Translations under genes and position numbers: made by a program
In this document: positions 9,354-61,391 of the stretch, in pieces
How positions within the stretch are numbered: position 1 is the stretch's first letter
Layout of the letters: each line of letters begins with the position of its first letter
From: Minisyncoccota bacterium
Lineage (GTDB): Bacteria; Patescibacteriota; Minisyncoccia; Minisyncoccales; Minisyncoccaceae
Length of the DNA: 64,000 nucleotides
Assembly: GCA_028692555.1 (NCBI GenBank)
Contig: JAQUXE010000002.1
Span: 1 to 64,000 of the forward strand
Direction: 5' to 3'
The notes under the pieces: model-generated
Databases searched by the model: none
Seen by the model: only the letters and a program-made list of their open reading frames with translations
Told to the model about the DNA's origin: nothing

Positions 9354-9362
9354 ATTTATATA

Positions 9363-12538: not shown

Positions 12539-13483
12539 TTAGGAACACACATTTTGCACTTTTTTTAACGCCTCATTTGGAGTTAAACCATCTAGAGCAC
12601 AATGTTCTAAATTATTATATTTAATATTCCATACTCTCAATTCTTTTTTTAATTGTATTATGGTTTTAAAATTGTGTCTATCGTAAAACATTTCTTGATC
12701 AGTTCGATGAGATCTTTCTACCTTTCCATTCTGAGCAGGCTTACCGGGATCGATTAAATAGTGAATGATGTTTTTCTTTCCACATAGAATGTCAAATTCA
12801 TGAAGTCGAGGATTTAAAGGGTCATTAGACTTATTGTATCCTATGTATCTGTTTGTGAAACAACTTCCATTATCAGTTTTTATTGCTCTGATTCTAAAAG
12901 GAGCAATTTCAATTATTCTATTTAAAAACTTAATAGCACAATCATTTCCCATACCATCATATACTTCTAAGTGTCTCCACCTCGAAGCACAGTCAATAGC
13001 TGTAAATTGATAATATTTAAGCCCATTAATGCTTCCTGGTACATATTTAATGTCTATTTCTACTAATTCTCCTGGCTGAAGAAGATTTTTTATATACTTC
13101 CACTTTAACTTTCTAGTCCTGTATTTTCTAACCAATCCTTCCGTCTTAATTATTTTTCCAATTGTCCTTGTATTAATTATGATTCCTTTTTTCTTTAACT
13201 TAAAGTTAAGTTTTTTAGCACACAACTTGGATTCTTTTCTTAGTTTAATTATTTCCTCTTTAATATGAATAGGGGTTTCATTGGGTGCTGTTTTAGGCCT
13301 TCTGCTTCTATTTATTAATCCACCTAATCCATTTTTACGATATTTAGACAACCAGTATTTAATTGTTCTTTCACTAAAGGGAGATACAGAAACTAGATTT
13401 TTAATGCTAATATTTTTCTCTAATATGGGTTTTATCCACCTATATTTTTCTTCTTGTGTTGATTTTGGCATAGTTTTTGACAT
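12539..13483 (-). CDS. IS481-family-like DDE transposase (HTH + rve integrase core)
   Basis: 314 aa single ORF. N-terminal HTH; integrase-core DDE signatures (...QFTAIDCASR..., IKTDNGSCFTN, QNGKVERSHRT). Confidence 0.8.
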   Translation of the reverse strand: MSKTMPKSTQEEKYRWIKPILEKNISIKNLVSVSPFSERTIKYWLSKYRKNGLGGLINRSRRPKTAPNETPIHIKEEIIKLRKESKLCAKKLNFKLKKKGIIINTRTIGKIIKTEGLVRKYRTRKLKWKYIKNLLQPGELVEIDIKYVPGSINGLKYYQFTAIDCASRWRHLEVYDGMGNDCAIKFLNRIIEIAPFRIRAIKTDNGSCFTNRYIGYNKSNDPLNPRLHEFDILCGKKNIIHYLIDPGKPAQNGKVERSHRTDQEMFYDRHNFKTIIQLKKELRVWNIKYNNLEHCALDGLTPNEALKKVQNVCS

Positions 13484-19120: not shown

Positions 19121-20899
19121 ATGGGATTATTCGGAAACAAAAGACAAAAGAAAGAAAAGATTATGGACAGAGAAATAACTTCTGCAATAGACATTATTTC
19201 TCCTGCCTCAATTGAGGTTCATCCAAATCACATTAAGCTAGAAGAGAAATTAGCAAAAACCTATTTTGTTTTTTCTTATCCAAGATATTTAACTACTGGA
19301 TGGCTTTCTCCAATTATTAATATGGATATTCCACTTGATATTTCTTTCTTTTTTCATCCAATTGAAACAGGTAGCATTTTGAAACAGCTAAGGAAAAGTG
19401 TAACAGAAGTTCAAGCAGAAATAATGGAAAGAGAAGAGAAAGGCCTTATTAGAGATCCGGCACTAGAGACAGCATATCAAGACCTTGAAGACTTAAGAGG
19501 ACAACTTCAAACAGCTCAAGAAAAAATGTTCAAGTTTGGATTATATATTACAGTTTATGCTGATGATATAAAAGAGCTTGAAAGGATAGAAACTATTTTA
19601 AGATCGACGCTTGAGTCTCGTTTAATTTATATCAAGCCAGCACTATACCAGCAAAAAGAAGGACTACTTTCAACTTTTCCCTATGGAACTGATTTATTAC
19701 AAATTCACAACACGTTAAACACAACTCCACTATCAAGTATTTTTCCCTTCATATCATTTGATCTTAGTTCAAACGAAGGAATACTTTATGGATTAAATAA
19801 ACATAACAGCTCACTAGTTCTATTTGATCGTTTTAGTATGGAAAATGCTAATATGGTAATTTTTGCTAAATCAGGTTCTGGTAAATCATATGCTGTAAAA
19901 TTAGAGATTCTTCGTTCTTTAATGATGGGAACAGAATGTATTATTTTAGACCCTGAAAATGAGTTTAAAACGCTAGCTGAATCAGTCGATGGATCATTCT
20001 TTAAAATATCTTTAAGTTCCGAAAGCCATGTTAATCCATTTGACTTGCCCGAGCCAAGGGAAGATGAGCGAGCAGAAGATGTTTTGCGTTCTAATATTAT
20101 TAATCTAGTTGGACTAATGAGAATCATGCTCGATGGATTAAGCGCCGAAGAAGATGCTATTATGGATCAAGCGTTATCTGAAACTTATGCTGCAAAAGAC
20201 ATTACCCCTAACTCTGACCCATCAACATGGGCAGAGAATGTTCCAATTATGTCAGACCTTGAATCAGTGCTAGAAACGATGGAAGGGGCCGATTCTTTAG
20301 TTGAAAGAATAAGAAAGTTCACAAGGGGAACATTTGCCTCCTTCTTTAATCAAAGATCAAATATATCAATGAATAATAATTTAGTTGTTTTCGGTATAAG
20401 GGACATGGAAGATGAGCTTCGTCCTATGGCGATGTTTATTATCATGCGTTACATCTGGAACACAGCAAGAGCGGTCCTCAAGAAAAGAATACTAGTTATA
20501 GATGAGGCATGGTGGATGATGAAAACTGACGATGGAGCATCTTTCTTGTTTGGAATATGTAAAAGAGCTAGAAAATATTGGTTAGGAGTAACAACTATCA
20601 CTCAAGATGTTTCTGATTTTATGCGATCTGATTATGGAAAACCAATCATCACCAACTCTTCTATACAATTACTATTAAAACAAAGTCCCGCAACAATAGA
20701 TTTAATCCAGCAAACATTTAATTTAACTGAGCAAGAAAAATTTCTTTTGCTTGAAACCCCAGTAGGGGAAGGAATCTTTTTCGCTGGACAGAAACATGTC
20801 TCCATTAGAATTATGGCATCATACACAGAAGATCAAATTATTACCACAAGCCCAGAAGAGATAGCAAAAATTAAACAAGCAAAAAACCTGCTTAGCTAG
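19121..20899 (+). CDS. VirB4/TraE-type conjugation ATPase, ATPase domain
   Basis: 592 aa. Walker A FAKSGSGKSY, VirB4 hallmark Walker B ILVIDEAWWMM, conserved C-terminal region. 211+592 aa matches full-length VirB4 (~800 aa). Confidence 0.8.
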   Translation: MGLFGNKRQKKEKIMDREITSAIDIISPASIEVHPNHIKLEEKLAKTYFVFSYPRYLTTGWLSPIINMDIPLDISFFFHPIETGSILKQLRKSVTEVQAEIMEREEKGLIRDPALETAYQDLEDLRGQLQTAQEKMFKFGLYITVYADDIKELERIETILRSTLESRLIYIKPALYQQKEGLLSTFPYGTDLLQIHNTLNTTPLSSIFPFISFDLSSNEGILYGLNKHNSSLVLFDRFSMENANMVIFAKSGSGKSYAVKLEILRSLMMGTECIILDPENEFKTLAESVDGSFFKISLSSESHVNPFDLPEPREDERAEDVLRSNIINLVGLMRIMLDGLSAEEDAIMDQALSETYAAKDITPNSDPSTWAENVPIMSDLESVLETMEGADSLVERIRKFTRGTFASFFNQRSNISMNNNLVVFGIRDMEDELRPMAMFIIMRYIWNTARAVLKKRILVIDEAWWMMKTDDGASFLFGICKRARKYWLGVTTITQDVSDFMRSDYGKPIITNSSIQLLLKQSPATIDLIQQTFNLTEQEKFLLLETPVGEGIFFAGQKHVSIRIMASYTEDQIITTSPEEIAKIKQAKNLLS

Positions 20900-21341
20900 C
20901 AGGTTTTACTATAATCTTTCTTTCTTCTCCTTCGCCAACACTTTCTGCTAAAACGTCGTTTCTTTCTTGTAGTTCTATGTGAACTATTCTTCTGTCAAAC
21001 GAAGACATTAAAGGAATCTCTCTTTCTCTTCCTGTCTTTAAAACCTCGTCAGCAACTCTCCAAGCAAGATCTTTTAAATAGCTTTCTTTGTTCTTTTTGT
21101 AATTATCAACATCTACACTAATATATGATTCTTCGCTTGTTTTCTTTTTAATTATTTTTCTCAAGAGTAGTTGTACATCTGCTAAAACAAGGCCCTGTCT
21201 TCCAATTAGTGTTTGAGCGTCATTTGTTGCAATGTCAATATTAATTAGATTATCTTTTTGTTCAACTTCAATACTAGCTTCAAAACTAGCCTTTTTAAAG
21301 AATTCATCTACTATGTTCTTAATTTCTTCTTTGTTAATCAT
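20892..21341 (-). CDS. jag: Jag/EloR-type KH + R3H RNA-binding protein
   Basis: 149 aa with KH-like and R3H-like C-terminal region. Last gene of the conserved rpmH-rnpA-yidC-jag cluster. Confidence 0.7.
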   Translation of the reverse strand: MINKEEIKNIVDEFFKKASFEASIEVEQKDNLINIDIATNDAQTLIGRQGLVLADVQLLLRKIIKKKTSEESYISVDVDNYKKNKESYLKDLAWRVADEVLKTGREREIPLMSSFDRRIVHIELQERNDVLAESVGEGEERKIIVKPAS

Positions 21342-22053
21342 TGTTCTGTTTTAATATTTTCTTTTGTTGATATATTGTCATTGCAGTTGTTATTAGCCAA
21401 TAAACACCAAGTGCTGATGGTAAAGTGAATAAAACAAACAATGTTACTATAGGAAGTATAAAAACCATCTGTTTCTGCATCATGTCAGTAATCTGCATCG
21501 TTTTGTCTTTTGGCTCTTTGCTTTCTTTTCCGTCTTTCTGTTTTGTAAAACTTGTCTTTGCTTGGAAGTATTGAGCTATTGCTGCAAGTACTGCTAAAAA
21601 CATATTTGGTTGAGACAGGTCAATTCCTAAGAAGTAAGGGTTAATCATTTCTGGAAGGTGAACAAAAGAATACATGTATTGGGGATCAATCACTATTCCT
21701 CCTTTGAATATTTGGAACAAGGCGATAATAATAGGTATCTGTATAAAAAGCAAAAGAATGCTTGAAAAAGGATTAAAGTTCTTTTCCTTATATAGAGCCA
21801 TCATTGCTTGAGCTTGTTTCTCTGGAGTATCTTTGTATTTCTTTTGGATTTCTTTTATCTTTGGCTGAATTTCTGCCATTGCCTTTTGCGACTCTATTGC
21901 TTTTTTATTTAATGGATTTGTTAACCATTTGATTAGAACTGTAAGGATTATTACAGCAACACCAAAATTATTTGTAAGGACATATATTAAAACTAAGAAA
22001 TTCAGCATTGGCTGATAGAGTAGGGCATTATAGATTGTTAAAAAGATATTCAT
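21334..22053 (-). CDS. yidC: membrane protein insertase YidC (short form)
   Basis: 239 aa polytopic protein with YidC/Oxa1 core motifs. Synteny after rnpA. Confidence 0.8.
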   Translation of the reverse strand: MNIFLTIYNALLYQPMLNFLVLIYVLTNNFGVAVIILTVLIKWLTNPLNKKAIESQKAMAEIQPKIKEIQKKYKDTPEKQAQAMMALYKEKNFNPFSSILLLFIQIPIIIALFQIFKGGIVIDPQYMYSFVHLPEMINPYFLGIDLSQPNMFLAVLAAIAQYFQAKTSFTKQKDGKESKEPKDKTMQITDMMQKQMVFILPIVTLFVLFTLPSALGVYWLITTAMTIYQQKKILKQNND

Positions 22054-22370
22054 CGTTTTAATGTTTTTTCAATATCACTCTCTATTTCATTATATGGAAC
22101 GCCTTTTATTGAAGATAATGCAATGATTATAATACTTAGCCCTCTCTTAAGGTCAGTCTTTTTTGCTACTTCTCTAAGCTGTCTTTTTATCTTATTTCTT
22201 TCTACGGCCTTTTTAGAAACTTTCTTGCTAACTATGAATCCTACTTTTGCATACCCTAGCCCATTACCTAAATACTTTACAATAATATTTCTTCCCTTTA
22301 TCGTTCTTCCATTCTCAAAAATAGCCTCAAACTCTTTCTTTTTCTTAAGCCGATTCTCTTTGGGCAACAT
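22050..22370 (-). CDS. rnpA: ribonuclease P protein component
   Basis: 106 aa basic protein. RnpA motif KVSKKAVERNKIKRQLRE. Follows rpmH. Confidence 0.8.
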   Translation of the reverse strand: MLPKENRLKKKKEFEAIFENGRTIKGRNIIVKYLGNGLGYAKVGFIVSKKVSKKAVERNKIKRQLREVAKKTDLKRGLSIIIIALSSIKGVPYNEIESDIEKTLKR

Positions 22371-22376
22371 AGAACA

Positions 22377-22511
22377 TTAAACAGAAAGCTTTGCTCTTCC
22401 TTTTCTTCTCCTGTTAGCTAGAATCTTCTGGCCACTTTTTGTGCTAGATCTTTCTAGAAAACCGTGAGTTGTTTGCCTCTTCTTCTTTTTGGGCTGATAG
22501 GTTTTGCTCAT
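22377..22511 (-). CDS. rpmH: 50S ribosomal protein L34
   Basis: Not in ORF track (44 aa). Reverse-complement translation gives MSKTYQPKKKKRQTTHGFLERSSTKSGQKILANRRRKGRAKLSV, a textbook L34. Confidence 0.85.
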   Translation of the reverse strand: MSKTYQPKKKKRQTTHGFLERSSTKSGQKILANRRRKGRAKLSV

Positions 22512-22738
22512 AATGTTATTAATAATTAACTTATGAGGAAACTATAACAAAAAATGTTCCCTTGGTCAATCAATTTATGCGCTGCCTATATTTTATCTTG
22601 TACGCTTATATATATACAGGATAATACAACGCTTAAAATTACCAGCTACTTTTCCACATCATATCCACAGGGGCCATTATTCCCTTCATCCTATAATGTT
22701 TTTTTGATTTGTTGACGATAGTAAGATATAATGATGTT
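22512..22738. other. origin-proximal spacer upstream of dnaA with near-consensus DnaA boxes
   Basis: TTTTCCACA (22651-22659) and ATATCCACA (22661-22669), each 1 mismatch to TTATCCACA. AT-rich. Divergent rpmH / dnaA promoters expected here. Confidence 0.45.
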
Positions 22739-24100
22739 ATGACTAATGAAGAAATCTGGCAATCAGTTTTATCTCAAATTCAATTGAATATTTCTCCAGC
22801 AAACTTTGCTACATGGTTTGCCAATACCGCCATATCTTCTATTGAAGATGATTTTGCTGTTGTCTCTGTTCCAAACTCTTTTTCGAAAGAATGGATGGAA
22901 CAAAAATACCACAAAGAAATATTAAAGATCATAAAATCAATTGATGAAAGTGTTAAGGAGATTAAATATATTGTTGTTCCTATGAACACAAAAACAACCA
23001 CCAAGAAAACAATGAAGAAAGAGCAGGAAGAACCTGTTGAACAACTTGGCTTTTCAGAGTTAGAAGTAGACAAAGAAACAAACCTTAACCCTAAATACAG
23101 TTTTAATAATTTCATAATCGGGCCATTCAATGAAATCGCCTATGCCGCCGCGATGTCTATTGTAGAAGAGCCAGGAAGAAACTATAATCCCTTATTCATA
23201 TACGGCGATGTGGGACTAGGAAAAACTCACTTAATGCAAGCTATTGGAAACAAGATAAAAGAAGACTTTCCCTCTAAGAAAATAAAATATATACCTGCAG
23301 AAAGATTAATTTCAAAGATTGTAAATGCTATTAGATCTCAAAGCATTGAAGAATTGAAAAAAAACCTAAGAGAAATCGATGTTTTGATTGTCGACGATAT
23401 TCAATTCTTGGCCGGAAAAGATAAAACTCAAGAAGAGTTCTTTCACACTTTTAATTCTCTCTATCAAAAAAATAAACAAATTATACTTTCTTCTGATAGA
23501 CACCCTGATAATATTCCTGCTATCACAGAAAGACTCAAGTCACGCTTTAATGGGGGAATGATCGCTGACATAAATATGCCCGACTATGAAACAAGGCTAG
23601 CAATATTAAGTCAGAAAATAGAAGAAAAGAATATTAGTATTTCTCAAGATGTTTTAGAATATATTGCTAGTAACGTCCAAAAGAACATAAGAGAGCTAGA
23701 AAGCTCAATTAGTCGATTAGTAATTTGTAAAAAAACAAACGGAAATAAAATAATAAACATTGATGACGCTAAGAAGTTGTTAAAGAATATTATTGTTTCT
23801 CCAGTCAAGATTACTAATCATAAGAAAATAATTGAATCAATTAATAGTTTCTATGATATCTCTTCGAGTAATATGTTCTTAACTTCTAGAAAGAAAGAGT
23901 ATGCTAGACCGAGACAGATTGCAATGTATTTACTTAAGAAGGAATTAAAAATGTCTTACTCAGAAATAGGTAGAAAGTTTGGAGGAAAAGACCATACAAC
24001 AGTAATGCATGCTTGTCAATTAATAGAAAAATCTTATGAAGAAAATGATAAAACAAGACAAGAAATAGATTTAATTTTGCAAAGAATATATAGTAAATAG
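22739..24100 (+). CDS. dnaA: chromosomal replication initiator DnaA
   Basis: AAA+ Walker A GDVGLGKTHL, Walker B LIVDDIQF, C-terminal DnaA box-binding signature (KFGGKDHTTVMHA). Start placed at ATG MTNEEIWQ (ORF track begins at upstream TTG 22709). Confidence 0.95.
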   Translation: MTNEEIWQSVLSQIQLNISPANFATWFANTAISSIEDDFAVVSVPNSFSKEWMEQKYHKEILKIIKSIDESVKEIKYIVVPMNTKTTTKKTMKKEQEEPVEQLGFSELEVDKETNLNPKYSFNNFIIGPFNEIAYAAAMSIVEEPGRNYNPLFIYGDVGLGKTHLMQAIGNKIKEDFPSKKIKYIPAERLISKIVNAIRSQSIEELKKNLREIDVLIVDDIQFLAGKDKTQEEFFHTFNSLYQKNKQIILSSDRHPDNIPAITERLKSRFNGGMIADINMPDYETRLAILSQKIEEKNISISQDVLEYIASNVQKNIRELESSISRLVICKKTNGNKIINIDDAKKLLKNIIVSPVKITNHKKIIESINSFYDISSSNMFLTSRKKEYARPRQIAMYLLKKELKMSYSEIGRKFGGKDHTTVMHACQLIEKSYEENDKTRQEIDLILQRIYSK

Positions 24101-24319
24101 TGTGGAAAAAATGTTAAGATAATAGTGGTAAAATAATTAATAAAAAAGTTATTAATTATTAAACAGAGATTATCTAATAATTAATACCCTTCTTATCCAC
24201 ATTCAATAAAACCTAAAGCCCTTACAATTAAAACAAAAAATTAGAAATAATAATGTTATCCACAAAATAATCAAAATTAATAGTAATAATAAATAAATAA
24301 GAATTATTATAAGAAAAAT
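24101..24319. other. oriC candidate (dnaA-dnaN intergenic) with DnaA boxes and AT-rich unwinding region
   Basis: Perfect TTATCCACA at 24193-24201 and 24256-24264. TGTGGAAAA (1 mismatch, opposite orientation) at 24101-24109. Extremely AT-rich tracts (ATAATAAATAAATAAGAATTATTATAAG) near 24281-24310. Confidence 0.65.
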
Positions 24320-25444
24320 ATGAACTTCACAATATTAGCTAAAGAACTAAAAAAAGGATTAACCTTTGTAGAGAAAATAACAGGTAAAAATTTAACATTA
24401 CCAATACTTAATAATTTATTAATTGAAGCGCTTCCTAATTTCTTAAAAATATCTTCAACTGATTTAGAAGTAGGAATAGAATGGTGGGGACCATGCAAAA
24501 CTGAAAAAGAGGGAAGTGTTGTTGTTCCTGCTAAATTCTTAAGTCAATTAGTCGGGGCATTACCAGAAGAGAAAATAAATATAAGGAATAAGGGAAGTAA
24601 CCTTTTAATTGAAGGTAATAATATTAAAACACAAGTTAAAGGATTTTCTTCTGAAGAATTTCCAATTATTCCTAAATTTCTTAAAGATATATATATAGAG
24701 ATGGATGGAAAAAAATTAAGGGATGGCTTAATAAGTGTTGTCGATATGGTAAGTGCTTCTCAAGTTAAGCCAGAAATATCTGGAGTATATTTCTCTTTTA
24801 ATAATGGAGATATTAAACTAGTAGCGACAGATAGTTTTAGGCTTGCCGAAAAAACAATTAAAGATGATATTAAAAATTTATTTGAAAGGGAAATTAATTT
24901 TATTCTTCCTCAAAAAACAACAAAAGAATTAATTAATATTTTACCAGAAGAAGAAGACAAAAAAATAAGAATATATTTTTCTGAGTCACAGGTAATGTTT
25001 GAGACTTTCCTACCCAACTCAACTCATTCAGAGATTAATCTTGTTTCAAGACAAATTGACGGCGAGTACCCATCATATGAAGAAATTATTCCTAAAGCGT
25101 CAAAAACAAAAATTGTTTTAAATAAAGATGAGTTTGTAAAACAAATTAAGATGGCGGGACTCTTTGGAGGAAAGACTAGTGAAGTAGCTATAAAAGTAGG
25201 AGAAAAAAACATAGAGATAAAAAGTCAAGATGATGAGATAGGAGAAAGTGAGTTAAGTATGATAGCTATTACTGAGGGCGATCCAGCAAAAGTATCATTT
25301 AATTATCGTTTCATATTAAATGCACTAATAAACATTAAAGCTTCAGAAATATCTTTTGAAATGCAAGGCAATGATGGTCCAGCGCTAATCAAGCCAATAG
25401 GAGACACCAGTTATCAGTATGTAATTATGCCTATTAGAGTATAA
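24320..25444 (+). CDS. dnaN: DNA polymerase III beta sliding clamp
   Basis: 374 aa, three-domain clamp pattern. Canonical position after dnaA. Confidence 0.9.
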   Translation: MNFTILAKELKKGLTFVEKITGKNLTLPILNNLLIEALPNFLKISSTDLEVGIEWWGPCKTEKEGSVVVPAKFLSQLVGALPEEKINIRNKGSNLLIEGNNIKTQVKGFSSEEFPIIPKFLKDIYIEMDGKKLRDGLISVVDMVSASQVKPEISGVYFSFNNGDIKLVATDSFRLAEKTIKDDIKNLFEREINFILPQKTTKELINILPEEEDKKIRIYFSESQVMFETFLPNSTHSEINLVSRQIDGEYPSYEEIIPKASKTKIVLNKDEFVKQIKMAGLFGGKTSEVAIKVGEKNIEIKSQDDEIGESELSMIAITEGDPAKVSFNYRFILNALINIKASEISFEMQGNDGPALIKPIGDTSYQYVIMPIRV

Positions 25445-48643: not shown

Positions 48644-49864
48644 ATGATACATTCATTTTCTTGTCATAATTTTTATTCATTTAAAGACCTAACAAAGGTT
48701 GATTTTGTGGTTAATAAAAAGGCACCAATAAACAATTCTTATTTCATTACTGAAACAGGTAGTCGTTTATCAAAAATAGAAACAGTGATTGGTCCCAACG
48801 CTTCAGGAAAAACAAACCTATTAAAGGTCATTCCTTTTTTGAGGTGGTTTATTGTTCATTCTTTTGAAATAGATATCGAAAAGAACCTCCCTGTAAAATC
48901 TTTTTTTTATGGTGATTCTGAAAAAAAACCAACATATTTTGCTGTTGTCTTTCAGATAGAAAATAAAATATATGAATATTCAGTAATTCTTGATAGTAAA
49001 ATAATTAAAAAAGAAGAACTTAAGGTTAGGGTAAAAAACATAAAAAAAACATCTACAAAAAAATTGTTTACTAGGGAGTGGGATCCTATAAACAAAAAAT
49101 ATAAATTAAGTGCAAGAAATTTTAATTTGCCCAAAGTTGTGGATGCTTCTCAATTGCAAAATAAGGCAAGCTTAATTTGCACTGCGGCTCGTAGCAATCA
49201 CAAAGAAAGTCAAGAAATAATTAATTTTTGGAGAAAAATAGAAACCAATGTAATTGAAATAGGATGGCTGGGGGACAGTTATTCAAAAGACAAAGGGACT
49301 CAATTTTATAGGGCCGTAAATTTTTATAATAATCCTCAAAATAAAATAATAAAAGAAAGAGTAGAAGAATTGCTTTCTCAATTTGATTTAGGATTAAATT
49401 CATTTAATATTGAGAAAGACGAAAAAGAAGGAGAAGCTTTTCTTCGCCTGAATTTTAACCATTCTTTTGGCGGAGAAATAAAGTTGCTTCCATTTATTTA
49501 TGAGTCTTCCGGAACAAAGCAGTTGTTTATTATACTAAAAAGTATTTTAAGTGTTTTAAATAACGGAGGAATTATTGTTTTAGATGAATTTGATGCGAGC
49601 TTACATCCATCTATAGTTTTAAAAATATTTGAATTATTTATTCATCCAGAAACTAATCCCAACAATGCTCAAATTATTTTTAGTACTCATAATCATCAAA
49701 TTTTAAATTCTTTAGACAAATATCAAATCATTTTGGTTGAAAAAAACAATGAAGGAGTAAGTGAGGCATGGCGATTAGATGAAATGGGTAGTGAAGTTCG
49801 AATAGATGATAATTTTTATGCTAAATATATAGCTGGTACATATGGTGGCATACCAAAGATATAA
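48644..49864 (+). CDS. ABC-type (AAA_21-like) ATPase, AbiLi/RloA-like putative defense ATPase
   Basis: 406 aa. Walker A GPNASGKTN, signature-like ESSGTKQL, Walker B IIVLDEFDASLHP, H-loop STHN. Confidence 0.7.
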   Translation: MIHSFSCHNFYSFKDLTKVDFVVNKKAPINNSYFITETGSRLSKIETVIGPNASGKTNLLKVIPFLRWFIVHSFEIDIEKNLPVKSFFYGDSEKKPTYFAVVFQIENKIYEYSVILDSKIIKKEELKVRVKNIKKTSTKKLFTREWDPINKKYKLSARNFNLPKVVDASQLQNKASLICTAARSNHKESQEIINFWRKIETNVIEIGWLGDSYSKDKGTQFYRAVNFYNNPQNKIIKERVEELLSQFDLGLNSFNIEKDEKEGEAFLRLNFNHSFGGEIKLLPFIYESSGTKQLFIILKSILSVLNNGGIIVLDEFDASLHPSIVLKIFELFIHPETNPNNAQIIFSTHNHQILNSLDKYQIILVEKNNEGVSEAWRLDEMGSEVRIDDNFYAKYIAGTYGGIPKI

Positions 49865-50354
49865 GAAAAAAATAATAAAAAAGACAACTCTTTTTTTCGG
49901 AGAAGGTCTTTTAGATTCTTTGTTTTTAGAGTATTTAAAATCAATATACTCATCAAAAAAGATTCATATAACAATACGACGCGGTCGAGGAGGAGACGCC
50001 AAAAAAATCGTCAAAGATTGTATAAAAGTTTTTGGTGATTTTAAAAAAAGAGCTGTTCTTTTAGATAATGATAAGCCAGCAAAAGAAGTTTTAGATGCAC
50101 GAAAGATTGCTAAAGAAAACAATATTATTGTTATAGAAAATACACCATGCTTAGAAGCACTTTTTTTATCTATTCTTGATAAAGATTATGAAAATAAGAA
50201 TACCAAGTGGTACAAGAAAGAATTTGAAAAACATCATAAAAAAGAAATTCAATCTTTTTATGATTTTAATAAAATCTTTCCAAAAGAAATAATTGAAGAA
50301 AAAAGAGAAAAGATTAGTAATCTTAAATTAATAATAGAGACATTAACAAAATAG
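49842..50354 (+). CDS. RloB/AbiLii-like (TOPRIM-related) partner protein
   Basis: 170 aa. N-terminal TLFFGEGLLDSLFLEYL (cf. RloB ilivcEGekTE.yF) and IVIENTPCLEALFLSIL (cf. RloB NPcFElWlLlHF) recalled from the RloB family. 23-nt overlap with upstream ATPase gene. Confidence 0.5.
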   Translation: MVAYQRYKKKIIKKTTLFFGEGLLDSLFLEYLKSIYSSKKIHITIRRGRGGDAKKIVKDCIKVFGDFKKRAVLLDNDKPAKEVLDARKIAKENNIIVIENTPCLEALFLSILDKDYENKNTKWYKKEFEKHHKKEIQSFYDFNKIFPKEIIEEKREKISNLKLIIETLTK

Positions 50355-50386: not shown

Positions 50387-51328
50387 ATGAAAATACAAGA
50401 GATTTTTGATTTAGCAATAAAGATGGGAATAAATTCCGACTTAAGGGGTTCTGCAAAAGTAGAGAAGTTTTTGAGTAGAAAAAAGAAAAAATATGATGAA
50501 TTAAGCGAAGGCAAAAAAGAAGAGTTTGATATTGAGGCACTAACTAATCCTTACTTAGATTCAAGAATTCACAACATTGCAGAAGATAAGGAGATAAAAA
50601 AGGTCTTGTCTGGTATTGATGCTGACACAGCGGAGCTATTACTAGCAAAACAGCTGGGAGTAGATTTAGTTATTAGTCATCATCCTGTTGGAAAAGGATT
50701 GTCTTGCCTGGGGGATGTTATGGAGATGCAGGCCGATATTTACAATCAATATGGAGTTCCAATTAATGTTGCAGAAGCACTAAATAACCCTAAGATTGGA
50801 GAAGTTACAAGAAGCGTTACTTCTTCAAATCATCAAAAAAGTGTTGACGCAGCAAAAATTTTGGGGGTTAATTTTATAAATATTCATACCCCAGCAGATA
50901 ATTTAGTAGCAAATTTTCTTAAGAACTTAGTTGAAAGCAAGGAATTAGAAACAGTTGAGGAGTTAATTAATTTATTAAAAGAAATTCCTGAGTACAGAGA
51001 GGCGATTAAAAATGGTTCTGGTCCTAAAATTATTACAGGCAAGGGAGACAACAGGTGTGGCAAAATTGCAATTACAGAAATAACAGGAGGAACAGAAGCA
51101 TCTTCAAAATTAATGGAAGCTCTTTCTCAGGCAGGAGTTGGTACTGTTGTTGCTATGCACGCCTCGGAAGATCACAGAAAAAAAGCAGAGGCCTCTCATA
51201 TTAATATTGTTATTGCTGGCCATATTTCTTCTGACTCTTTAGGGATGAATTTATTTTTAGATGAACTAGAAAAAAAGGGAATAGAAATTATTCCTTTTAG
51301 TGGATTAACTAGAGTTAAAAGGTCTTAA
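50387..51328 (+). CDS. Nif3-like dinuclear-metal-centre protein (tentative)
   Basis: 313 aa. LVISHHPV and NIHTPAD resemble NIF3 metal-binding motifs (HHP..., H-T-x-x-D). Confidence 0.45.
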   Translation: MKIQEIFDLAIKMGINSDLRGSAKVEKFLSRKKKKYDELSEGKKEEFDIEALTNPYLDSRIHNIAEDKEIKKVLSGIDADTAELLLAKQLGVDLVISHHPVGKGLSCLGDVMEMQADIYNQYGVPINVAEALNNPKIGEVTRSVTSSNHQKSVDAAKILGVNFINIHTPADNLVANFLKNLVESKELETVEELINLLKEIPEYREAIKNGSGPKIITGKGDNRCGKIAITEITGGTEASSKLMEALSQAGVGTVVAMHASEDHRKKAEASHINIVIAGHISSDSLGMNLFLDELEKKGIEIIPFSGLTRVKRS

Positions 51329-52817
51329 TCATATAGGTTTTTGAAAGGCGATATCCTAATTTTTTCCTATAATAATCTCTTACGCCAACACCTGAAATTA
51401 CAGCAATTCTTTTTTTATTTGCTATTTTTTCTGCTTCTTTAACCATTAGCATTCCTAGCCCTTTGTGTTGGGATCCTTTTTTTGATATTTGTGTCGCTTG
51501 ACCATAAACGTGAACTTCTCTAATTAAGGCAGTGTCACTATTAGTAATTCTTAATCTTAAAATAGAATATATATTTTTTCTATTTTTGTCTTCGAAACTT
51601 AAAAATATTTCTTTCCCATCTGATGCCTCATACTCTTCTTTAAAAAGAAAAACTTCTTCGTTTTTTATATCTTTAATTTCTCTGCATCTTATGCATTTGC
51701 ATATTTTTTGAGAATCAATAAATTGTCTTAAGTTTGATGATTTAGCTCCTCCCTCAACAATTAATGGAGAAGGAATATCTCTAATAATTCTTTCAATTCG
51801 AACATAGATTGGAATGTACTTTTTTATTTCATTAATTGTTTCAATTAAAATCTCTCTATTATATGGCTTATATTCTCCTTTGAGATAAAGATTATATAAT
51901 GGAGCTTCTTTTACGAGCGCACAAGGATATATTTTTAAATAATCGGGCTTAAAAGAAGGATTACTAAACAATTCTTTAAACATTTCAATATCTTTTTGAG
52001 GATTAGATCCTGGAAGATTTAACATCATTTGATAGGCAACTTTAAAACCAGCATTTTTCAATAGCTTCGTTGCTTTTATTGTTTCTTTAACTCCGTGGCC
52101 TCTTTTATTCATAGTTAAAACATTATCATATAGTGACTGAACTCCTATCTCTATTTTTGTAGCGCCCAATAGAAGCATTTCGTCAATTTCTTTTTGGTTA
52201 ATAAAATCGGGCCTTGTTTCAAAAGAAATTCCCACGATTCTATGCTTTGCTTTCTCATTCCTTCTTTGGGAAAGCTTCAATGTTCTATCTTTTTTATCAT
52301 TGCAGGCCTCAAAGCATCTTTTAACAAACCACTCTTTGTATTTTTTAGTATAACTAGACCAGTTCCCTCCAATTAGACGGAGCTCTATTTTATCAGTTGG
52401 ATGTCCTCCTAATTCTAATGATTCAATACGATTTTTGACTTGCAAATAGGGATCATACTTTAATTTTTTAGCTCTTTCAACCGCCGGTTCACCCGATAGG
52501 TAGCTTTTGGGAATATTTGTCTCTTTAGGGCAATAAATACACTCTCCAGGGCAATCATATGGCTTGGTTAAGACAGAAACATTAACTACACCTGATAAAG
52601 ACCTCACAGGCCTAGTGATTAATAGTTTTTCTATTTCGCTATTTTTTTTAATTCTTTTTTTATTAACTAAACTATGATATTCTCTAAGCAGAGCAATGTT
52701 ACTTGGGCAATCAATTTTATTCTCTTTAGCAAAGCTTCTTTTAACAGAAGCCAGCTCTTTAGAAGAGGTAACATTTTTATCTAAAAGATCTCTAATTATT
52801 AATTCGTTGTAATTCAT
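51315..52817 (-). CDS. elp3: Elp3-type radical SAM + GNAT tRNA wobble-uridine modifying enzyme
   Basis: 500 aa. Radical-SAM cluster CPGECIYC (CxxxCxxC), long rSAM core, C-terminal acetyltransferase-like domain. Confidence 0.85.
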   Translation of the reverse strand: MNYNELIIRDLLDKNVTSSKELASVKRSFAKENKIDCPSNIALLREYHSLVNKKRIKKNSEIEKLLITRPVRSLSGVVNVSVLTKPYDCPGECIYCPKETNIPKSYLSGEPAVERAKKLKYDPYLQVKNRIESLELGGHPTDKIELRLIGGNWSSYTKKYKEWFVKRCFEACNDKKDRTLKLSQRRNEKAKHRIVGISFETRPDFINQKEIDEMLLLGATKIEIGVQSLYDNVLTMNKRGHGVKETIKATKLLKNAGFKVAYQMMLNLPGSNPQKDIEMFKELFSNPSFKPDYLKIYPCALVKEAPLYNLYLKGEYKPYNREILIETINEIKKYIPIYVRIERIIRDIPSPLIVEGGAKSSNLRQFIDSQKICKCIRCREIKDIKNEEVFLFKEEYEASDGKEIFLSFEDKNRKNIYSILRLRITNSDTALIREVHVYGQATQISKKGSQHKGLGMLMVKEAEKIANKKRIAVISGVGVRDYYRKKLGYRLSKTYMIKTF

Positions 52818-53451
52818 GGAAAATAATAAAGCTAAAAATATAATAAGGGAAACTATTGAGGATTATAACAGCATTTCCCAAAAATACTCAAGCGTTAGAA
52901 GTAAGCCATGGAAAGAGATGGAGTTTCTCTTTAGAGATACTAAAGAGGGCGACAACGTCTTAGATTTAGGTTGCGGAAACGGAAGATTTTATGAATATCT
53001 TAAAAAATCTAACTATATTGGTATAGACCCTTCGGTAGAATTAATTAAAATATGTAAAAATAATTATCCTGAGGCAAGCTTCAAGGTTGCTCTTGGCAAT
53101 GATCTTCCCTTTGAAGATGAATTATTTGATAAAATATTTAGCATTGCAGTTTTGCATCATATCCCTAGTGAAAAATTAAGAAAAGAATTTTTATTAGAAG
53201 TTAAAAGAGTTTTAAAAAATGATGGCATATTTATTTTGACTGTCTGGAATTTAAAAAACAAACTAAAAGGAGAGAAAGATGTTTTTATTCCATGGTATAG
53301 CGAAAAAGAAACTTATTTTTATTGTTTTAATCTAGAAGAACTGATACAATTAGTCAAAGATTGTGGTTTTGAGATTATTGACAGCGGAGAGATATTAATA
53401 GGAAAAAAGCCATATTCTAATTTTTATATCAAATGTCAAAAAAAGAAATAA
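52816..53451 (+). CDS. Trm9-like tRNA (carboxymethyluridine34) methyltransferase
   Basis: 211 aa. SAM motif VLDLGCGNGRF. Blocks Y..ISQKYSSVRSKPW, FDKIFSIAVLHHIPS and DVFIPW mirror Trm9 blocks (YNEIAPHFSQTRYKPW, FDFAISIAVVHH, DVFVPW). Divergent with elp3, overlapping by 2 nt. Confidence 0.65.
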   Translation: MENNKAKNIIRETIEDYNSISQKYSSVRSKPWKEMEFLFRDTKEGDNVLDLGCGNGRFYEYLKKSNYIGIDPSVELIKICKNNYPEASFKVALGNDLPFEDELFDKIFSIAVLHHIPSEKLRKEFLLEVKRVLKNDGIFILTVWNLKNKLKGEKDVFIPWYSEKETYFYCFNLEELIQLVKDCGFEIIDSGEILIGKKPYSNFYIKCQKKK

Positions 53452-54011
53452 AATATAATATAGTTGTTTCTGGGGCCGCTCAAGTTGGTCATTGCGCAGA
53501 AAACATAGAAGAAATATCAAAAGAAGTTGGTAGAGAAATCGCTAGACAGGGCCACACACTTGTGACAGGGGCAACAACAGGTGTTCCATATTTTTCTGCA
53601 GTTGGATGTAATGAAGAAGGGGGATTTAATATAGGATTTTCTCCCGCATCAACAGAAAGTCAGCACCTTAAGTCATATAGATTGCCATTAGATCCTTTTA
53701 ATATTATGATTTATACAGGAGCTGATTATGTTGGAAGAGATGTTGTAATGACTAAGTCGGCTGATGCAGTAATTATTATTTGTGGAAGAACAGGAACACT
53801 TCACGAATTTACTGTAGCTATTGAAACACAAAAAGCAATTGCTGTTTTAGAAGGAACTGGAGGCATGGCCGATAAGATAAGGGGAATAATTGAGAGTTAT
53901 TGCAAAGCATCAAACAAAATCATATATGACAGAGATCCTAGAAAATTAGTAGAGAGAACAATTAAAGAAATTCAAAGAAAAAAGAAAAAGACATCTAAAT
54001 TATTAAAATAA
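53433..54011 (+). CDS. Rossmann-fold nucleotide-binding protein of the TIGR00725/SLOG (LOG-like) type
   Basis: 192 aa. VVSGAAQVG...GHTLVTGATTGVPY...ICGRTGTLHEF pattern typical of LOG/SLOG proteins. Confidence 0.45.
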   Translation: MSKKEIKYNIVVSGAAQVGHCAENIEEISKEVGREIARQGHTLVTGATTGVPYFSAVGCNEEGGFNIGFSPASTESQHLKSYRLPLDPFNIMIYTGADYVGRDVVMTKSADAVIIICGRTGTLHEFTVAIETQKAIAVLEGTGGMADKIRGIIESYCKASNKIIYDRDPRKLVERTIKEIQRKKKKTSKLLK

Positions 54012-58829: not shown

Positions 58830-60511
58830 AAAATCAAGAAATAGCGCAAATTTTATTTGAAATTGGTGATTTATTGGACTTACAAGAAGTTCCATTTAAG
58901 CCAGAGGCATATAAGAAAGCAGCTATTGCGATTGATTTATTAGAGGAAAATATTGATTTAATATATCAAAAAGAAGGCATAAAAGGATTAGAAAAGATTG
59001 GGGGAGTTGGTAAAAGCATTGCCCTTTCAATTGAAGAATACTTAAAAACAAATAAGATAGCTTTCTATAAGCAACTTAAAAAAGAATCACCAGTTAATCT
59101 GGAAGAATTATTAAAAGTTGAAGGGCTTGGTGTTAAAAAAATTAAAAAGCTTTATCAACAGTTAAAAATTAGAAACTTGAAGGACTTAGAAAAAGCCATT
59201 GAAGACAATAAAATAGCGCCATTGTTTGGTTTTGGAGAAAAGACAGAGCAAAATATTTTAGAATCAATTAAGTTTCTAAGACAAGGTCAGGATAAATTTC
59301 TTTTAAGGGACACATTAAAAGAGATAGATTTGGTAAGTGAAAAAATTAAAAGAATAAAAGAGGTTGTTGATTTTAGTGTTGCTGGCTCTGTAAGAAGAAA
59401 AAAGGAGATTATTGGAGATGTTGATTTTCTCGTTTCAATTGAAGACACAAGTAATAAATATGTAGTTGAGAAGGTAATGAATACTTTTGTGACGATGGAT
59501 AATGTAGTTAAAGTTATTGGAAAAGGAGAAACAAAATCATCAATAAAGACAAGTAATAATTTAAATATGGACTTAAGATTAGTTAGCGCCACTTCTTTTG
59601 GTGCAGCACTACAATACTTTACTGGTTCTAAGGACCATAATATCGCTTTAAGGAGGATTGCAATCAAAAAAGGATACAAGCTTAATGAGTATGGGCTTTT
59701 TAATGGAGACAAGAAGATAGCGGGGCAAACAGAAGAGGGTGTTTATGAGAAGCTTGGGCTTCAATTCGTTCCTCCAGAATTAAGAGAAAATCAGGGTGAA
59801 ATTAATTTAGCTATCAATAATGAAGTTCCTGATTTAGTAAGCTCTGTCAAAGGAGATCTTCATTGCCACACATCTTATAATGGTGGAGAGAATACAATAG
59901 AAGAAATGGCTGAAGAAGCAATTAAAATGGGTTATTCTTATTTGGGAATTACTGATCATAGCAAATCATTAAGAATTGAAAATGGGCTAGATGAGAAAAG
60001 ATTATTAGAGCAAAAAAAAGAAATAGATAAGTTGAATAAAAAGTATACTAATTTTAAATTGCTTTCGGGAGTAGAGGTAGACATTTTAAAAGATGGTTCA
60101 TTAGATATTGATAATGATGTATTAAAAGTCCTTGATTACGTTTCTATTAGTGTTCATTCTGGTTTTAAAATGACAAAAGAAGAAATGACTAAAAGAATAC
60201 TTAAGGCAATGGACAATTCTTATGTTAAAACACTAAATCATCCCACAGGTGCTATTATAGGGAAAAGAGAGAGTTATTTAGTTGATATGGAATTAATAAT
60301 TAAAAAGGCAAAGGAAAGAAACATTGCCCTAGAGATTAATTCATATAGGTGTGATTTAAATAGCCAGCTAGCAAAAATGGCTAAGAATTCAGGAGTAAAA
60401 TTAGTAATTAATAGTGATGCACATAATAAAAAAGAATTGCACGATATTCAATTTGGAATATATATTGCAAGGAGGGCAGGGTTAACAAAAGAAGATATAT
60501 ATGAAATATAA
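58826..60511 (+). CDS. polX: family X DNA polymerase with C-terminal PHP domain (PolX)
   Basis: 561 aa. HhH motifs (GVGKSIA, GLGVKKI), PolX catalytic Asp region (GDVDFLV), PHP His/Asp motifs (GDLHCHTSYNGG; ITDHS). Confidence 0.85.
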   Translation: MKNQEIAQILFEIGDLLDLQEVPFKPEAYKKAAIAIDLLEENIDLIYQKEGIKGLEKIGGVGKSIALSIEEYLKTNKIAFYKQLKKESPVNLEELLKVEGLGVKKIKKLYQQLKIRNLKDLEKAIEDNKIAPLFGFGEKTEQNILESIKFLRQGQDKFLLRDTLKEIDLVSEKIKRIKEVVDFSVAGSVRRKKEIIGDVDFLVSIEDTSNKYVVEKVMNTFVTMDNVVKVIGKGETKSSIKTSNNLNMDLRLVSATSFGAALQYFTGSKDHNIALRRIAIKKGYKLNEYGLFNGDKKIAGQTEEGVYEKLGLQFVPPELRENQGEINLAINNEVPDLVSSVKGDLHCHTSYNGGENTIEEMAEEAIKMGYSYLGITDHSKSLRIENGLDEKRLLEQKKEIDKLNKKYTNFKLLSGVEVDILKDGSLDIDNDVLKVLDYVSISVHSGFKMTKEEMTKRILKAMDNSYVKTLNHPTGAIIGKRESYLVDMELIIKKAKERNIALEINSYRCDLNSQLAKMAKNSGVKLVINSDAHNKKELHDIQFGIYIARRAGLTKEDIYEI

Positions 60512-61391
60512 ATGTTTATTACTTTTTTCTGGTGGGCTTGATTCTATGCTTGCAGCAAAGATATTAGAAGACGATGGTGTTAAGGTTATACCGATATGCT
60601 TTAAGAGCTCATTCTTTTCTTGTGAGCAAGCACAAAAATCTGCCAAAAAGATTGGTCTTAAATTAAGAATAGAAGATATTAGTGACACGCACTTGCGTAT
60701 TATTAAAAAGCCAAAATATGGTAGAGGCAAAGGATTTAATCCTTGCATAGATTGTCATTTGTTAATGATAAAAACTGCAGGAAGAATAATGAAGAAAGAG
60801 GGCTTTGACTTTATAGCCACTGGTGAAGTTTTAGGTCAGCGTCCAATGTCTCAAAATATTAATGCTCTTAAAATAATTGATAAAGCAGCAAAGCTTAGCA
60901 ATTTAATTGTAAGGCCATTGTCAGCTAAATTATTACCTCCAACTATTTTAGGTGATGGTAAATATTCAATATCTGGAAAATCAAGGGAGATGCAATTGAA
61001 ATTAGCTAAGAAGTTTAGAATTAAAGAATATCCAAGTCCAGCAGGGGGATGTATACTGACGGACATAAACTATTCAATTAATCTTAAAAAATTGATGGAT
61101 ATTAATCCCTCCTTCTCACATAACGATGTCTTAATATTAAGGCAAGGAAGGGTTTTTTGGGAAAAAGATTTATTAATTATTGTAGCAAGAAATGAAAGTG
61201 AATCTAATGAGCTGCCTAAGCTTAAGAAAAGGGTAGATGTTACTTTAGTGCCAGACAATTTTCCTGGTCCGACGGTGCTTGTTCGTAAGTACAAAAAATC
61301 ATCTCGAGAAGAGATGATTGATTGTGGTGTTAAGTATATTACGAAATATTCTAAAAATATTACGCCTTCACCCGTTCTAAAATTTTTATAA
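60501..61391 (+). CDS. PP-loop ATP pyrophosphatase, ThiI-like tRNA sulfurtransferase catalytic domain (no THUMP domain)
   Basis: 296 aa. PP-loop SGGLDS; NPCIDCH and FIATGEVLGQRPMSQNINAL...IVRPL resemble ThiI C-terminal half. Confidence 0.45.
   Translation: MKYKCLLLFSGGLDSMLAAKILEDDGVKVIPICFKSSFFSCEQAQKSAKKIGLKLRIEDISDTHLRIIKKPKYGRGKGFNPCIDCHLLMIKTAGRIMKKEGFDFIATGEVLGQRPMSQNINALKIIDKAAKLSNLIVRPLSAKLLPPTILGDGKYSISGKSREMQLKLAKKFRIKEYPSPAGGCILTDINYSINLKKLMDINPSFSHNDVLILRQGRVFWEKDLLIIVARNESESNELPKLKKRVDVTLVPDNFPGPTVLVRKYKKSSREEMIDCGVKYITKYSKNITPSPVLKFL

What the first reader, a model, noticed from the sequence alone, without database searches (positions are those of the whole stretch)
51315..53451. 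Divergent Elp3 / Trm9-like gene pair: eukaryote-archaea-type mcm5U34 tRNA wobble modification in a bacterium
The 500-aa radical-SAM (CPGECIYC) + GNAT protein is an Elp3 homolog. The divergently transcribed 211-aa methyltransferase starts 2 nt away (overlap at 52816-52817). It matches Trm9 in several blocks beyond the generic SAM motif (SVRSKPW; FDKIFSIAVLHH; DVFIPW). In eukaryotes Elp3 makes cm5U and Trm9 methylates it to mcm5U. Their coupling here suggests this pathway operates instead of, or in addition to, the bacterial MnmE/MnmG route. The ThiI-like PP-loop protein at 60501-61391 could supply thiolation, though that link is speculative.
Basis: partly seen in the sequence, partly recalled or inferred. 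Interest (0 to 1): 0.6.

Follow-up and report, generated by a model that had tools for sequence, protein, structure and literature searches.

The report
Bacterial Elp3 plus Trm9-like methyltransferase pair
A candidate-phyla-radiation bacterium carries, head to head, the two enzymes that eukaryotes and some archaea use to build the mcm5U wobble modification of tRNA, and the same pair recurs across Patescibacteria and in Dehalococcoides, so this "non-bacterial" pathway probably operates in two bacterial phyla.

Summary
A 500-aa ORF (51315-52817, minus strand) and a 211-aa ORF (52816-53451, plus strand) are divergent, and their start codons share two bases (CATG).

The 500-aa protein is a genuine Elp3. 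It scores 527 bits on TIGR01211 (cut-off 350) and has the radical-SAM and zinc cysteine triads.

Pfam and NCBIfam see only a generic class I methyltransferase in the 211-aa protein. Its closest solved relative by sequence is Trm9 (PDB 5CM2). It keeps six of the eight residues shown by mutagenesis to be essential in yeast Trm9. The equivalents of R241 and Y243 are T166 and F168 in this clade; R241 is retained in 65 of 80 Patescibacteria relatives, Y243 in 37.

Linkage is the strongest evidence. Elp3 lies head to head with this methyltransferase in 73 of 80 Patescibacteria species genomes, although the flanking genes differ. The same holds in 4 of 5 Dehalococcoidia loci, including D. mccartyi.

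Best reading: Elp3 makes cm5U34 and the methyltransferase esterifies it to mcm5U.

Not shown: enzyme activity, a Trm112 partner, absence of MnmE/MnmG, and the proposed thiolation link (1 of 80 loci). I found no paper describing a bacterial Trm9.

The parts
51315..52817 (-). Elp3: radical-SAM + KAT/GNAT tRNA U34 carboxymethyl (cm5U) synthase. It is the prokaryotic stand-alone type with a basic N-terminal extension.
   Evidence: TIGR01211 526.9 bits against cut-off 350, covering residues 8-499. Pfam Radical_SAM plus Radical_SAM_C. PDB best hits are M. infernus Elp3 6iaz at 417 bits, D. mccartyi Elp3 5l7j at 340 bits and eukaryotic Elp3 at about 310 bits; the alignment runs through the KAT domain including QHKGLG. 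The rSAM Cys are 89/93/96 and the Zn-motif Cys are 373/375/378. Residues 1-70 carry 15 K/R.
52816..53451 (+). Trm9-like class I SAM-dependent methyltransferase, the predicted cm5U34 carboxyl O-methyltransferase that would make mcm5U.
52815..52818 (.). CATG: overlapping divergent start codons. There is no intergenic region, so each gene's promoter must lie inside the other gene's coding sequence.
   Evidence: Sequence. In 73 related loci the apparent gap between the two genes is -12 to about +100 nt in most cases. Promoter-like sites in the region are not more frequent than in shuffled sequence, so no promoter is assigned.
53433..54011 (+). SLOG cluster-4 / TIGR00725-like protein. It is co-directional with the methyltransferase gene and overlaps its 3' end by 19 nt. 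It is a probable operon partner of unknown role and is not assigned to the pathway.
   Evidence: PF18306 117.9 bits. TIGR00725 scores 78.6, below its cut-off of 106.9. Closest PDB hit is 1rcu, a hypothetical protein. A homologue lies downstream on the same strand in 27 of 80 related loci.

Best explanation
The two divergent genes form a two-enzyme module for the archaeal/eukaryotic type of wobble-uridine modification. Elp3 would work alone, as it does in archaea. It would use its [4Fe-4S]/SAM domain and its acetyl-CoA-binding KAT domain to attach a carboxymethyl group to C5 of U34 in a subset of tRNAs, giving cm5U. The adjacent Trm9-like enzyme would then use SAM to methylate that carboxyl group, giving the methyl ester mcm5U. 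What is shown: both family assignments at sequence level, conservation of most of the Trm9 substrate-pocket residues, and very strong conservation of the head-to-head gene pair across two bacterial phyla. What is inferred: the two catalytic activities, the tRNA substrates, and whether the methyltransferase works without a Trm112-type activator.
For: Elp3 membership is supported by TIGR01211 above its cut-off and by full-length alignment to solved Elp3s with both Cys triads.

The methyltransferase has Trm9 as its top solved relative by sequence and by family profiles. It is also top by Foldseek.

The residue map was made against verified yeast Trm9, using the mutagenesis data of PMC4678810. R29, D72, H115/H116, W145, W168 and N271 are conserved in the window protein. 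Across 80 Patescibacteria homologues they are conserved in 68 to 80 sequences each. R241 is conserved in 65 of 80.

Linkage: Elp3 is head to head with the methyltransferase in 73 of 80 species-representative loci. Three of the 7 misses are contig ends. Other neighbours are far less constant: NIF3 32, SLOG 27, GreA 14, YceG 11.

The same divergent pair occurs in D. mccartyi and in 3 of 4 other Dehalococcoidia-type loci (L086 lacks it). The three aligned (L084, L085, L087) carry the full signature R..HH..W..PW..RYY[RHY]..N; the L088 gene as called lacks the N-terminal R.

Pairwise identities of the two proteins co-vary (Mantel r = 0.72, 0 of 999 permutations reached it).

Precedent: archaeal Trm9 makes mcm5U in a cm5U-dependent manner, and the Elp3 and Trm9 genes cluster in Sulfolobus (PMC6144793; PMC2584109).
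Against: The window protein and 14 relatives (15 of the 80 aligned sequences) have replaced the equivalent of Trm9 R241 (T166 in the window protein; T/C/H/V in the group) and all 15 have F in place of Y243 (F168). In yeast, R241A retains about 1% and Y243A about 10% of specific activity. No compensating basic residue was found.

No curated Trm9 model exists in Pfam or NCBIfam, and those libraries give only generic methyltransferase hits.

Eukaryotic and haloarchaeal Trm9 need Trm112. No Trm112-like ORF was found in the window.

No xcm5U nucleoside has been reported from any bacterium (PMC7663514).
Confidence: 0.7

Rival explanations
1. The methyltransferase is functionally coupled to Elp3 but, at least in the window's clade, makes a different product from mcm5U. 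It might act on a thiolated or 2'-O-methylated cm5U derivative, or methylate another atom of the Elp3-installed side chain.
For: R241 and Y243, modelled as contacting the cm5U carboxylate or positioning the nucleotide, are T166 and F168 here and in 14 relatives. Archaeal U34 chemistry downstream of Elp3 is itself incompletely known: an unidentified peak was seen in H. volcanii.
Against: R29 and H116, proposed to orient the carboxylate directly, are intact, as are W145, W168 and N271. The rest of the family keeps RYYH. The gene pair is retained in the divergent clade.
Confidence: 0.15
2. The methyltransferase is a small-molecule or protein methyltransferase (UbiE-like, as JGI annotates many homologues). 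Its position next to Elp3 would reflect only inherited synteny in compact genomes.
Against: UbiE models score 46 bits against a cut-off of 216. The pair persists where all other neighbours have changed, and it recurs in a second phylum. The Trm9-specific non-SAM residues are conserved.
Confidence: 0.07
3. The pair is a horizontally acquired remnant that is no longer active in tRNA modification.
For: Elp3 is regarded as an archaeal/eukaryotic enzyme. Purified DmcElp3 shows only weak activity (PMC7663514).
Against: Both ORFs are intact with catalytic motifs in 70+ species. GC content matches the surroundings. The two proteins co-vary in sequence across the phylum, which indicates long-term selection.
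Confidence: 0.04

Closest known systems
Trm9-Trm112 of yeasts (S. cerevisiae Trm9; Y. lipolytica structure PDB 5CM2) and the ALKBH8 methyltransferase domain
   Same: Class I SAM methyltransferase fold. It is the best solved relative by sequence. R29, D72, H115/H116, W145, W168 and N271 are shared. It acts downstream of Elp3.
   Different: 33% identity. It lacks the long lysine-rich insertion of yeast Trm9. The window protein has T and F in place of R241 and Y243. No Trm112 partner was identified. It is bacterial and genetically fused, head to head, to Elp3.
Archaeal Trm9 (H. volcanii HVO_1032 with Trm112) and the Elp3/Trm9 gene cluster of Sulfolobus solfataricus
   Same: A stand-alone Elp3 plus a Trm9 homologue in a prokaryote. 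Gene clustering of the two is reported. mcm5U was demonstrated in vivo and shown to depend on cm5U (PMC6144793, PMC2584109).
   Different: That system is archaeal and its Trm112 dependence is shown. No archaeal Trm9 sequence was available here for direct comparison, so relative closeness to archaeal versus eukaryotic Trm9 is untested.
Dehalococcoides mccartyi Elp3 (PDB 5L7J), the model bacterial Elp3
   Same: A bacterial stand-alone Elp3 with a zinc Cys triad. I find that it too has a divergent Trm9-like neighbour.
   Different: DmcElp3 is shorter (459 aa) and lacks the basic N-terminal extension. The window Elp3 scores higher against archaeal MinElp3 (417 against 340 bits) and has a 70-residue basic N-terminus like archaeal Elp3.
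MnmE/MnmG (cmnm5U/nm5U), the canonical bacterial xm5U34 pathway
   Same: It targets C5 of the wobble uridine in tRNAs.
   Different: The enzymes and chemistry are unrelated (GTPase plus FAD enzyme, using methylene-THF and glycine). Neither was found among the window ORFs scanned. Their genome-wide presence is untested.
E. coli CmoM (cmo5U to mcmo5U), cited from my own knowledge
   Same: A bacterial SAM-dependent methyl esterification of a carboxyl group on a U34 side chain.
   Different: It acts on the oxyacetic-acid pathway (CmoA/CmoB), not on an Elp3 product. I did not recognise a CmoM/SmtA entry among the 40 PDB matches with E <= 1e-3.

Membership tests
Elp3 (TIGR01211) | Full-length match to the curated family model above its trusted cut-off | tested here: met
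   526.9 bits against cut-off 350; residues 8-499 match model positions 3-521 of 522.
Elp3 (TIGR01211) | Radical-SAM [4Fe-4S] cysteine triad | tested here: met
   C89-x3-C93-x2-C96 aligns with the cluster loop of MinElp3. The motif is present in 71 of 71 full-length relatives.
Elp3 (TIGR01211) | C-terminal KAT/GNAT domain with an acetyl-CoA-binding motif | tested here: met
   The alignment to 6iaz runs to residue 498 and includes QHKGLGMLMVKEAE against QHMGYGRMLMKEAE. Pfam Acetyltransf_1 itself is not reported for this protein.
Elp3 (TIGR01211) | Zinc-binding Cys triad in the linker (bacterial/archaeal type, absent in eukaryotes; PMC6367351) | tested here: met
   C373, C375 and C378 (CKCIRC). 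Present in 69 of 71 relatives.
Elp3 (TIGR01211) | cm5U34 synthase activity on tRNA | not testable with these tools
   Requires biochemistry or nucleoside mass spectrometry.
Trm9 (tRNA carboxymethyluridine34 5-O-methyltransferase) | Trm9 is the closest characterised relative | tested here: met
Trm9 (tRNA carboxymethyluridine34 5-O-methyltransferase) | Substrate-pocket residues essential in yeast: R29, H116 (plus H115), W145, W168, N271; and the SAM-binding D72 | tested here: met
   The window protein has R28, H114/H115, W144, W160, N202 and D71. Family conservation is 68-80 of 80.
Trm9 (tRNA carboxymethyluridine34 5-O-methyltransferase) | Substrate-pocket residues R241 and Y243 (the RYYH motif) | tested here: not met
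   The window protein has T166 and F168 (TYFY). R is present in 65 of 80 and Y in 37 of 80 Patescibacteria homologues, and in the Dehalococcoides neighbours. The feature is therefore met by the family but not by this protein.
Trm9 (tRNA carboxymethyluridine34 5-O-methyltransferase) | Obligate Trm112 activator subunit | tested here: inconclusive
   No Trm112-like or CPxC...CxxC small ORF lies near the pair in the window. The rest of the genome is not available.
Trm9 (tRNA carboxymethyluridine34 5-O-methyltransferase) | Functional dependence on Elp3 (here tested as genomic coupling) | tested here: met
   73 of 80 loci are head to head (73 of the 77 that have enough upstream sequence). 4 of 5 Dehalococcoidia loci also carry the pair.
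Trm9 (tRNA carboxymethyluridine34 5-O-methyltransferase) | cm5U-dependent methyl ester formation | not testable with these tools
   Needs an in vitro assay on trm9-delta and elp-delta tRNA, or mass spectrometry.
UbiE/MenG quinone methyltransferases (the common database name for homologues) | Score above the curated family cut-off | tested here: not met
   Best UbiE model scores 46 bits against cut-off 216. TIGR01934 scores 44 against 158.
ThiI / MnmA tRNA thiolases (for the PP-loop protein at 60501-61391) | Score above equivalog cut-offs; conserved linkage with the pair | tested here: not met
   ThiI TIGR00342 scores 44 against 264.5 and MnmA 32 against 284. Only the PP-loop domain PF02568 and NFACT-R_2 pass the Pfam thresholds. 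A homologue lies near the pair in 1 of 80 loci.

The most novel reading that the evidence does not exclude
Patescibacteria as a phylum, and Dehalococcoidia, decode split codon boxes with an Elp3/Trm9-type xcm5U34 modification rather than the MnmE/MnmG type. mcm5U, possibly with 2-thiolation, would then be a genuine bacterial tRNA nucleoside. It would be made by a compact two-gene module whose Trm9 works without, or with a very different, Trm112 activator. The module would be either ancient or an early archaea-to-bacteria transfer that has been inherited vertically ever since.
Probability: 0.35. Interest if true: 0.7.

Novelty: new member of a known kind. Interest (0 to 1): 0.55.

Why it matters
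The searchable literature treats Elp3-type wobble modification as eukaryotic and archaeal. A 2020 review lists Dehalococcoides as the single bacterial clade and notes that no xcm5U has been seen there. A 2017 review states that no bacterial homologues of the Trm112-dependent methyltransferases could be detected.

A conserved Elp3/Trm9-like module across a huge bacterial radiation, and next to the very Elp3 used as the bacterial structural model, would have three consequences:
- It would add mcm5U to the bacterial modification repertoire.
- It would give biochemists small stand-alone versions of both enzymes for reconstituting the two-step pathway.
- It would bear on whether xcm5U chemistry predates the split between bacteria and archaea.

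It would also correct a widespread 'UbiE' mis-annotation in organisms that are not expected to make quinones (my own knowledge).

Tried and rejected
- Pfam and NCBIfam scans of the methyltransferase gave only generic class I hits. No Trm9 model exists in either library, so they can neither confirm nor refute.
- The AFDB50 fold library was unavailable.
- Pattern searches for a Trm112-like ORF found none in the window or near the Patescibacteria pairs. The small Zn-ribbon ORFs in L061 and L066 resemble LysW-type proteins by eye (not tested).
- The conserved Dehalococcoidia Zn-ribbon ORFs did not hit Pfam Trm112p. They could not be submitted for structure prediction.
- I searched for MnmE, MnmG and MnmA in two ways. 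About 45 window ORFs were scanned against family libraries. Motif scans covered 926 kb of fetched loci. Both were negative, but neither says anything about whole genomes.
- A search for a compensating basic residue in the clade that lost R241 found none.
- The promoter scan gave counts no higher than in shuffled sequence.
- Glatt et al. 2016 (PMC5018218) is not held. I could not check whether the D. mccartyi methyltransferase neighbour was noted there.
- Literature searches combining Elp3 with CPR terms returned nothing relevant.
Full report
**Observation**

The two ORFs exist exactly as described: 51315..52817 (-) of 500 aa and 52816..53451 (+) of 211 aa. The plus strand reads CATG at 52815-52818, so the two divergent start codons share two bases. 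Both N-termini align with homologues from the first residues, so the annotated starts are credible.

The window is bacterial. It carries tmRNA, GreA, MltG/YceG and dnaA-dnaN, and it is uniformly about 32% G+C. The closest relatives of its genes are Patescibacteria of the Paceibacteria/Minisyncoccales group.

**Elp3**

The 500-aa protein passes the curated Elp3 model (TIGR01211, 527 bits against a cut-off of 350). It aligns over its full catalytic length with solved Elp3s: archaeal MinElp3 at 417 bits, bacterial DmcElp3 at 340 bits and eukaryotic Elp3 at about 310 bits.

It has the radical-SAM Cys triad (C89/C93/C96). It also has the linker Cys triad (C373/C375/C378), which PMC6367351 describes as specific to bacterial and archaeal Elp3, and the KAT-domain QHxGxG motif.

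Unlike DmcElp3, it has a 70-residue N-terminal extension rich in K/R. PMC6367351 links this feature to tRNA binding in archaeal Elp3.

**The methyltransferase**

Pfam and NCBIfam recognise only a generic Methyltransf_11-type class I enzyme, and UbiE models fall far below their cut-offs.

Against all PDB sequences the top hit is Y. lipolytica Trm9 (5cm2_Z), at 68 bits against 45 for the next hit. Trm9 stays on top with a profile of the window's subclade (79.6 against 71.0) and with a profile of 25 diverse family members (102 against 85).

My recalled S. cerevisiae Trm9 sequence proved 100% identical to a database Trm9p. It aligns with the window protein at 33% identity over 168 residues.

**Active-site residues**

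Létoquart et al. (PMC4678810) showed that R29, D72, H116, W145, W168, R241, Y243 and N271 of yeast Trm9 are required for activity. H115 contributes partially. I aligned 80 Patescibacteria homologues (the window protein plus 79 GTDB loci) with seven yeast Trm9s.

| Yeast Trm9 residue | Window protein | Conserved in 80 Patescibacteria homologues |
|---|---|---|
| R29 | R28 | 80 |
| D72 | D71 | 80 |
| H115 | H114 | 75 |
| H116 | H115 | 73 |
| W145 | W144 | 80 |
| W168 | W160 | 68 |
| N271 | N202 | 77 |
| R241 | T166 | 65 |
| Y243 | F168 | 37 |

The window protein and 14 relatives (15 sequences in all) lack the arginine at the R241 position (T/C/H/V instead), and all 15 have F at the Y243 position. 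I found no compensating basic position. The family therefore carries the Trm9 pocket, while the window's clade has modified part of it. This is the main reason for caution about the exact product.

**Gene linkage**

The 80 best were all Patescibacteria: Paceibacteria, Nealson-, Campbell-, Portnoy-, Magasanik-, Peregrini-, Peri- and Gracilibacteria. Some records carry obviously wrong bin labels.

Elp3 lies immediately upstream on the opposite strand in 73 of the 80 loci. Three of the seven exceptions are contig ends. Other neighbours are much less constant: NIF3-like 32, SLOG 27, GreA 14 and YceG 11. The pair is thus the conserved core, not a by-product of block synteny. Pairwise identities of the two proteins co-vary (Mantel r = 0.72, 0 of 999 permutations reached it).

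I then reconstructed the DmcElp3 sequence from the PDB alignment and retrieved its relatives. Four of five loci examined, including D. mccartyi CP019867.1, also have a divergent methyltransferase next to Elp3, called at 186-224 aa (L086 does not). The three I aligned (L084, L085, L087) carry the complete Trm9 signature R..HH..VW..PW..RYY[RHY]..N; the L088 gene as called is N-terminally shorter and lacks the R, and was not aligned. The module therefore exists in two bacterial phyla.

**Mechanism**

The best-supported reading is a two-step pathway. Stand-alone Elp3 makes cm5U34. The Trm9-like enzyme then methyl-esterifies it to mcm5U. This is what was shown for H. volcanii Trm9, and it matches the Elp3/Trm9 gene cluster of Sulfolobus.

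The family assignments, the residue conservation and the linkage are shown. Catalysis, the substrates and any activator are inferred.

**What could not be settled**

- No Trm112-like ORF is present in the window.
- No mnmE, mnmG or mnmA was found among the roughly 45 window ORFs scanned, including the yidC-dnaA region where they often lie. That is weak evidence about the whole genome.
- The PP-loop protein at 60501-61391 is a ThiI-type PP-loop domain without THUMP, fused to an NFACT-R RNA-binding domain. It scores far below the ThiI and MnmA cut-offs. A homologue lies near the pair in only 1 of 80 loci. The proposed thiolation link remains speculation.

**Comparison with the literature**

Bacterial Elp3 is known. 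However, a 2020 review restricts it to Dehalococcoides and states that xcm5U has not been seen in these bacteria. A 2026 paper speaks of 'numerous bacteria'.

A 2017 review states that no bacterial genes resembling the Trm112-dependent methyltransferases could be detected. I found no paper linking Elp3 or Trm9 to the candidate phyla radiation.

Public annotation of the homologues is mostly 'UbiE' or 'class I SAM-dependent methyltransferase'. A few automated JGI assignments name TRM9 or ALKBH8.

**Verdict**

It is a new bacterial member of a known pathway, not a new kind of system. What lifts its value is its breadth across Patescibacteria and its presence beside the model DmcElp3.

Noticed in passing
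L084:3423-3650(-), L085:3387-3605(-), L087:2967-3185(-), L088:3002-3226(-): In all four Dehalococcoidia loci that have the Elp3/Trm9-like pair, a conserved 72-75-aa zinc-ribbon ORF (CPxC-x18-CWKC) lies just downstream of the methyltransferase. Its size and Cys pattern recall the short archaeal Trm112 class ([C/D]PX[C/D]X19-36CX2C), but it gives no Pfam Trm112p hit. It is a candidate activator subunit.
   Followed up: partly
window 53433-54011 (+): A SLOG cluster-4 / TIGR00725-like protein overlaps the 3' end of the methyltransferase gene by 19 nt. A homologue lies downstream on the same strand in 27 of 80 related loci. Its closest solved relative is an uncharacterised protein (1rcu). Its role is unknown.
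   Followed up: partly
window 48644-50354 (+): An AbiL-type abortive-infection pair is present: AbiLi AAA_21 ATPase at 246 bits and an AbiLii/RloB-like protein. It sits between the ATP synthase operon and the NIF3-like gene. Relatives L002 and L003 have no such genes there, so it looks like a small defence insertion.
   Followed up: partly
window 60501-61391 (+): A PP-loop ATPase of ThiI type (PF02568) without a THUMP domain is fused to a C-terminal NFACT-R_2 RNA-binding domain. It is probably an RNA-modifying enzyme with an unassigned target. It is not linked to the Elp3 pair in other genomes.
   Followed up: partly
window 50387-51328 (+): A highly divergent NIF3/DUF34-like protein (41 bits) is convergent with Elp3, and their 3' ends overlap by 14 nt. 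Homologues occur within 6 kb of the pair in 32 of 80 loci.
   Followed up: no
window 8025-11783 (-), 19121-20899 (+), 12539-13483 (-): Two large proteins carry T4SS-pilin domains. There is also a VirB4-like conjugation ATPase (CD1110 family, 354 bits) and an rve-family (IS481-like) integrase. This fits the monoderm-type T4SS reported for Patescibacteria.
   Followed up: no
window 38827-40242 (+): An AAA_14/DUF4143 ATPase matches the PADLOC candidate defence family PDC-S01 (119 bits).
   Followed up: no
window 21334-25444: This is the replication-origin neighbourhood (yidC, dnaA, dnaN). It lacks the mnmE/mnmG/rsmG genes that often accompany it in other bacteria.
   Followed up: partly
L011 (BTXY01000007.1, Ca. 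Microsyncoccus archaeolyticus PMX.50): A named, enrichment-cultured Patescibacterium carries the same Elp3/methyltransferase/SLOG arrangement. It offers an experimental handle for tRNA nucleoside analysis.
   Followed up: no
L062:1664-3145 (+): In one Peribacteria bin the Trm9-like ORF continues into a further ~250 aa C-terminal extension of unidentified nature, giving 493 aa. This may be a real fusion or an assembly or frameshift artefact.
   Followed up: no
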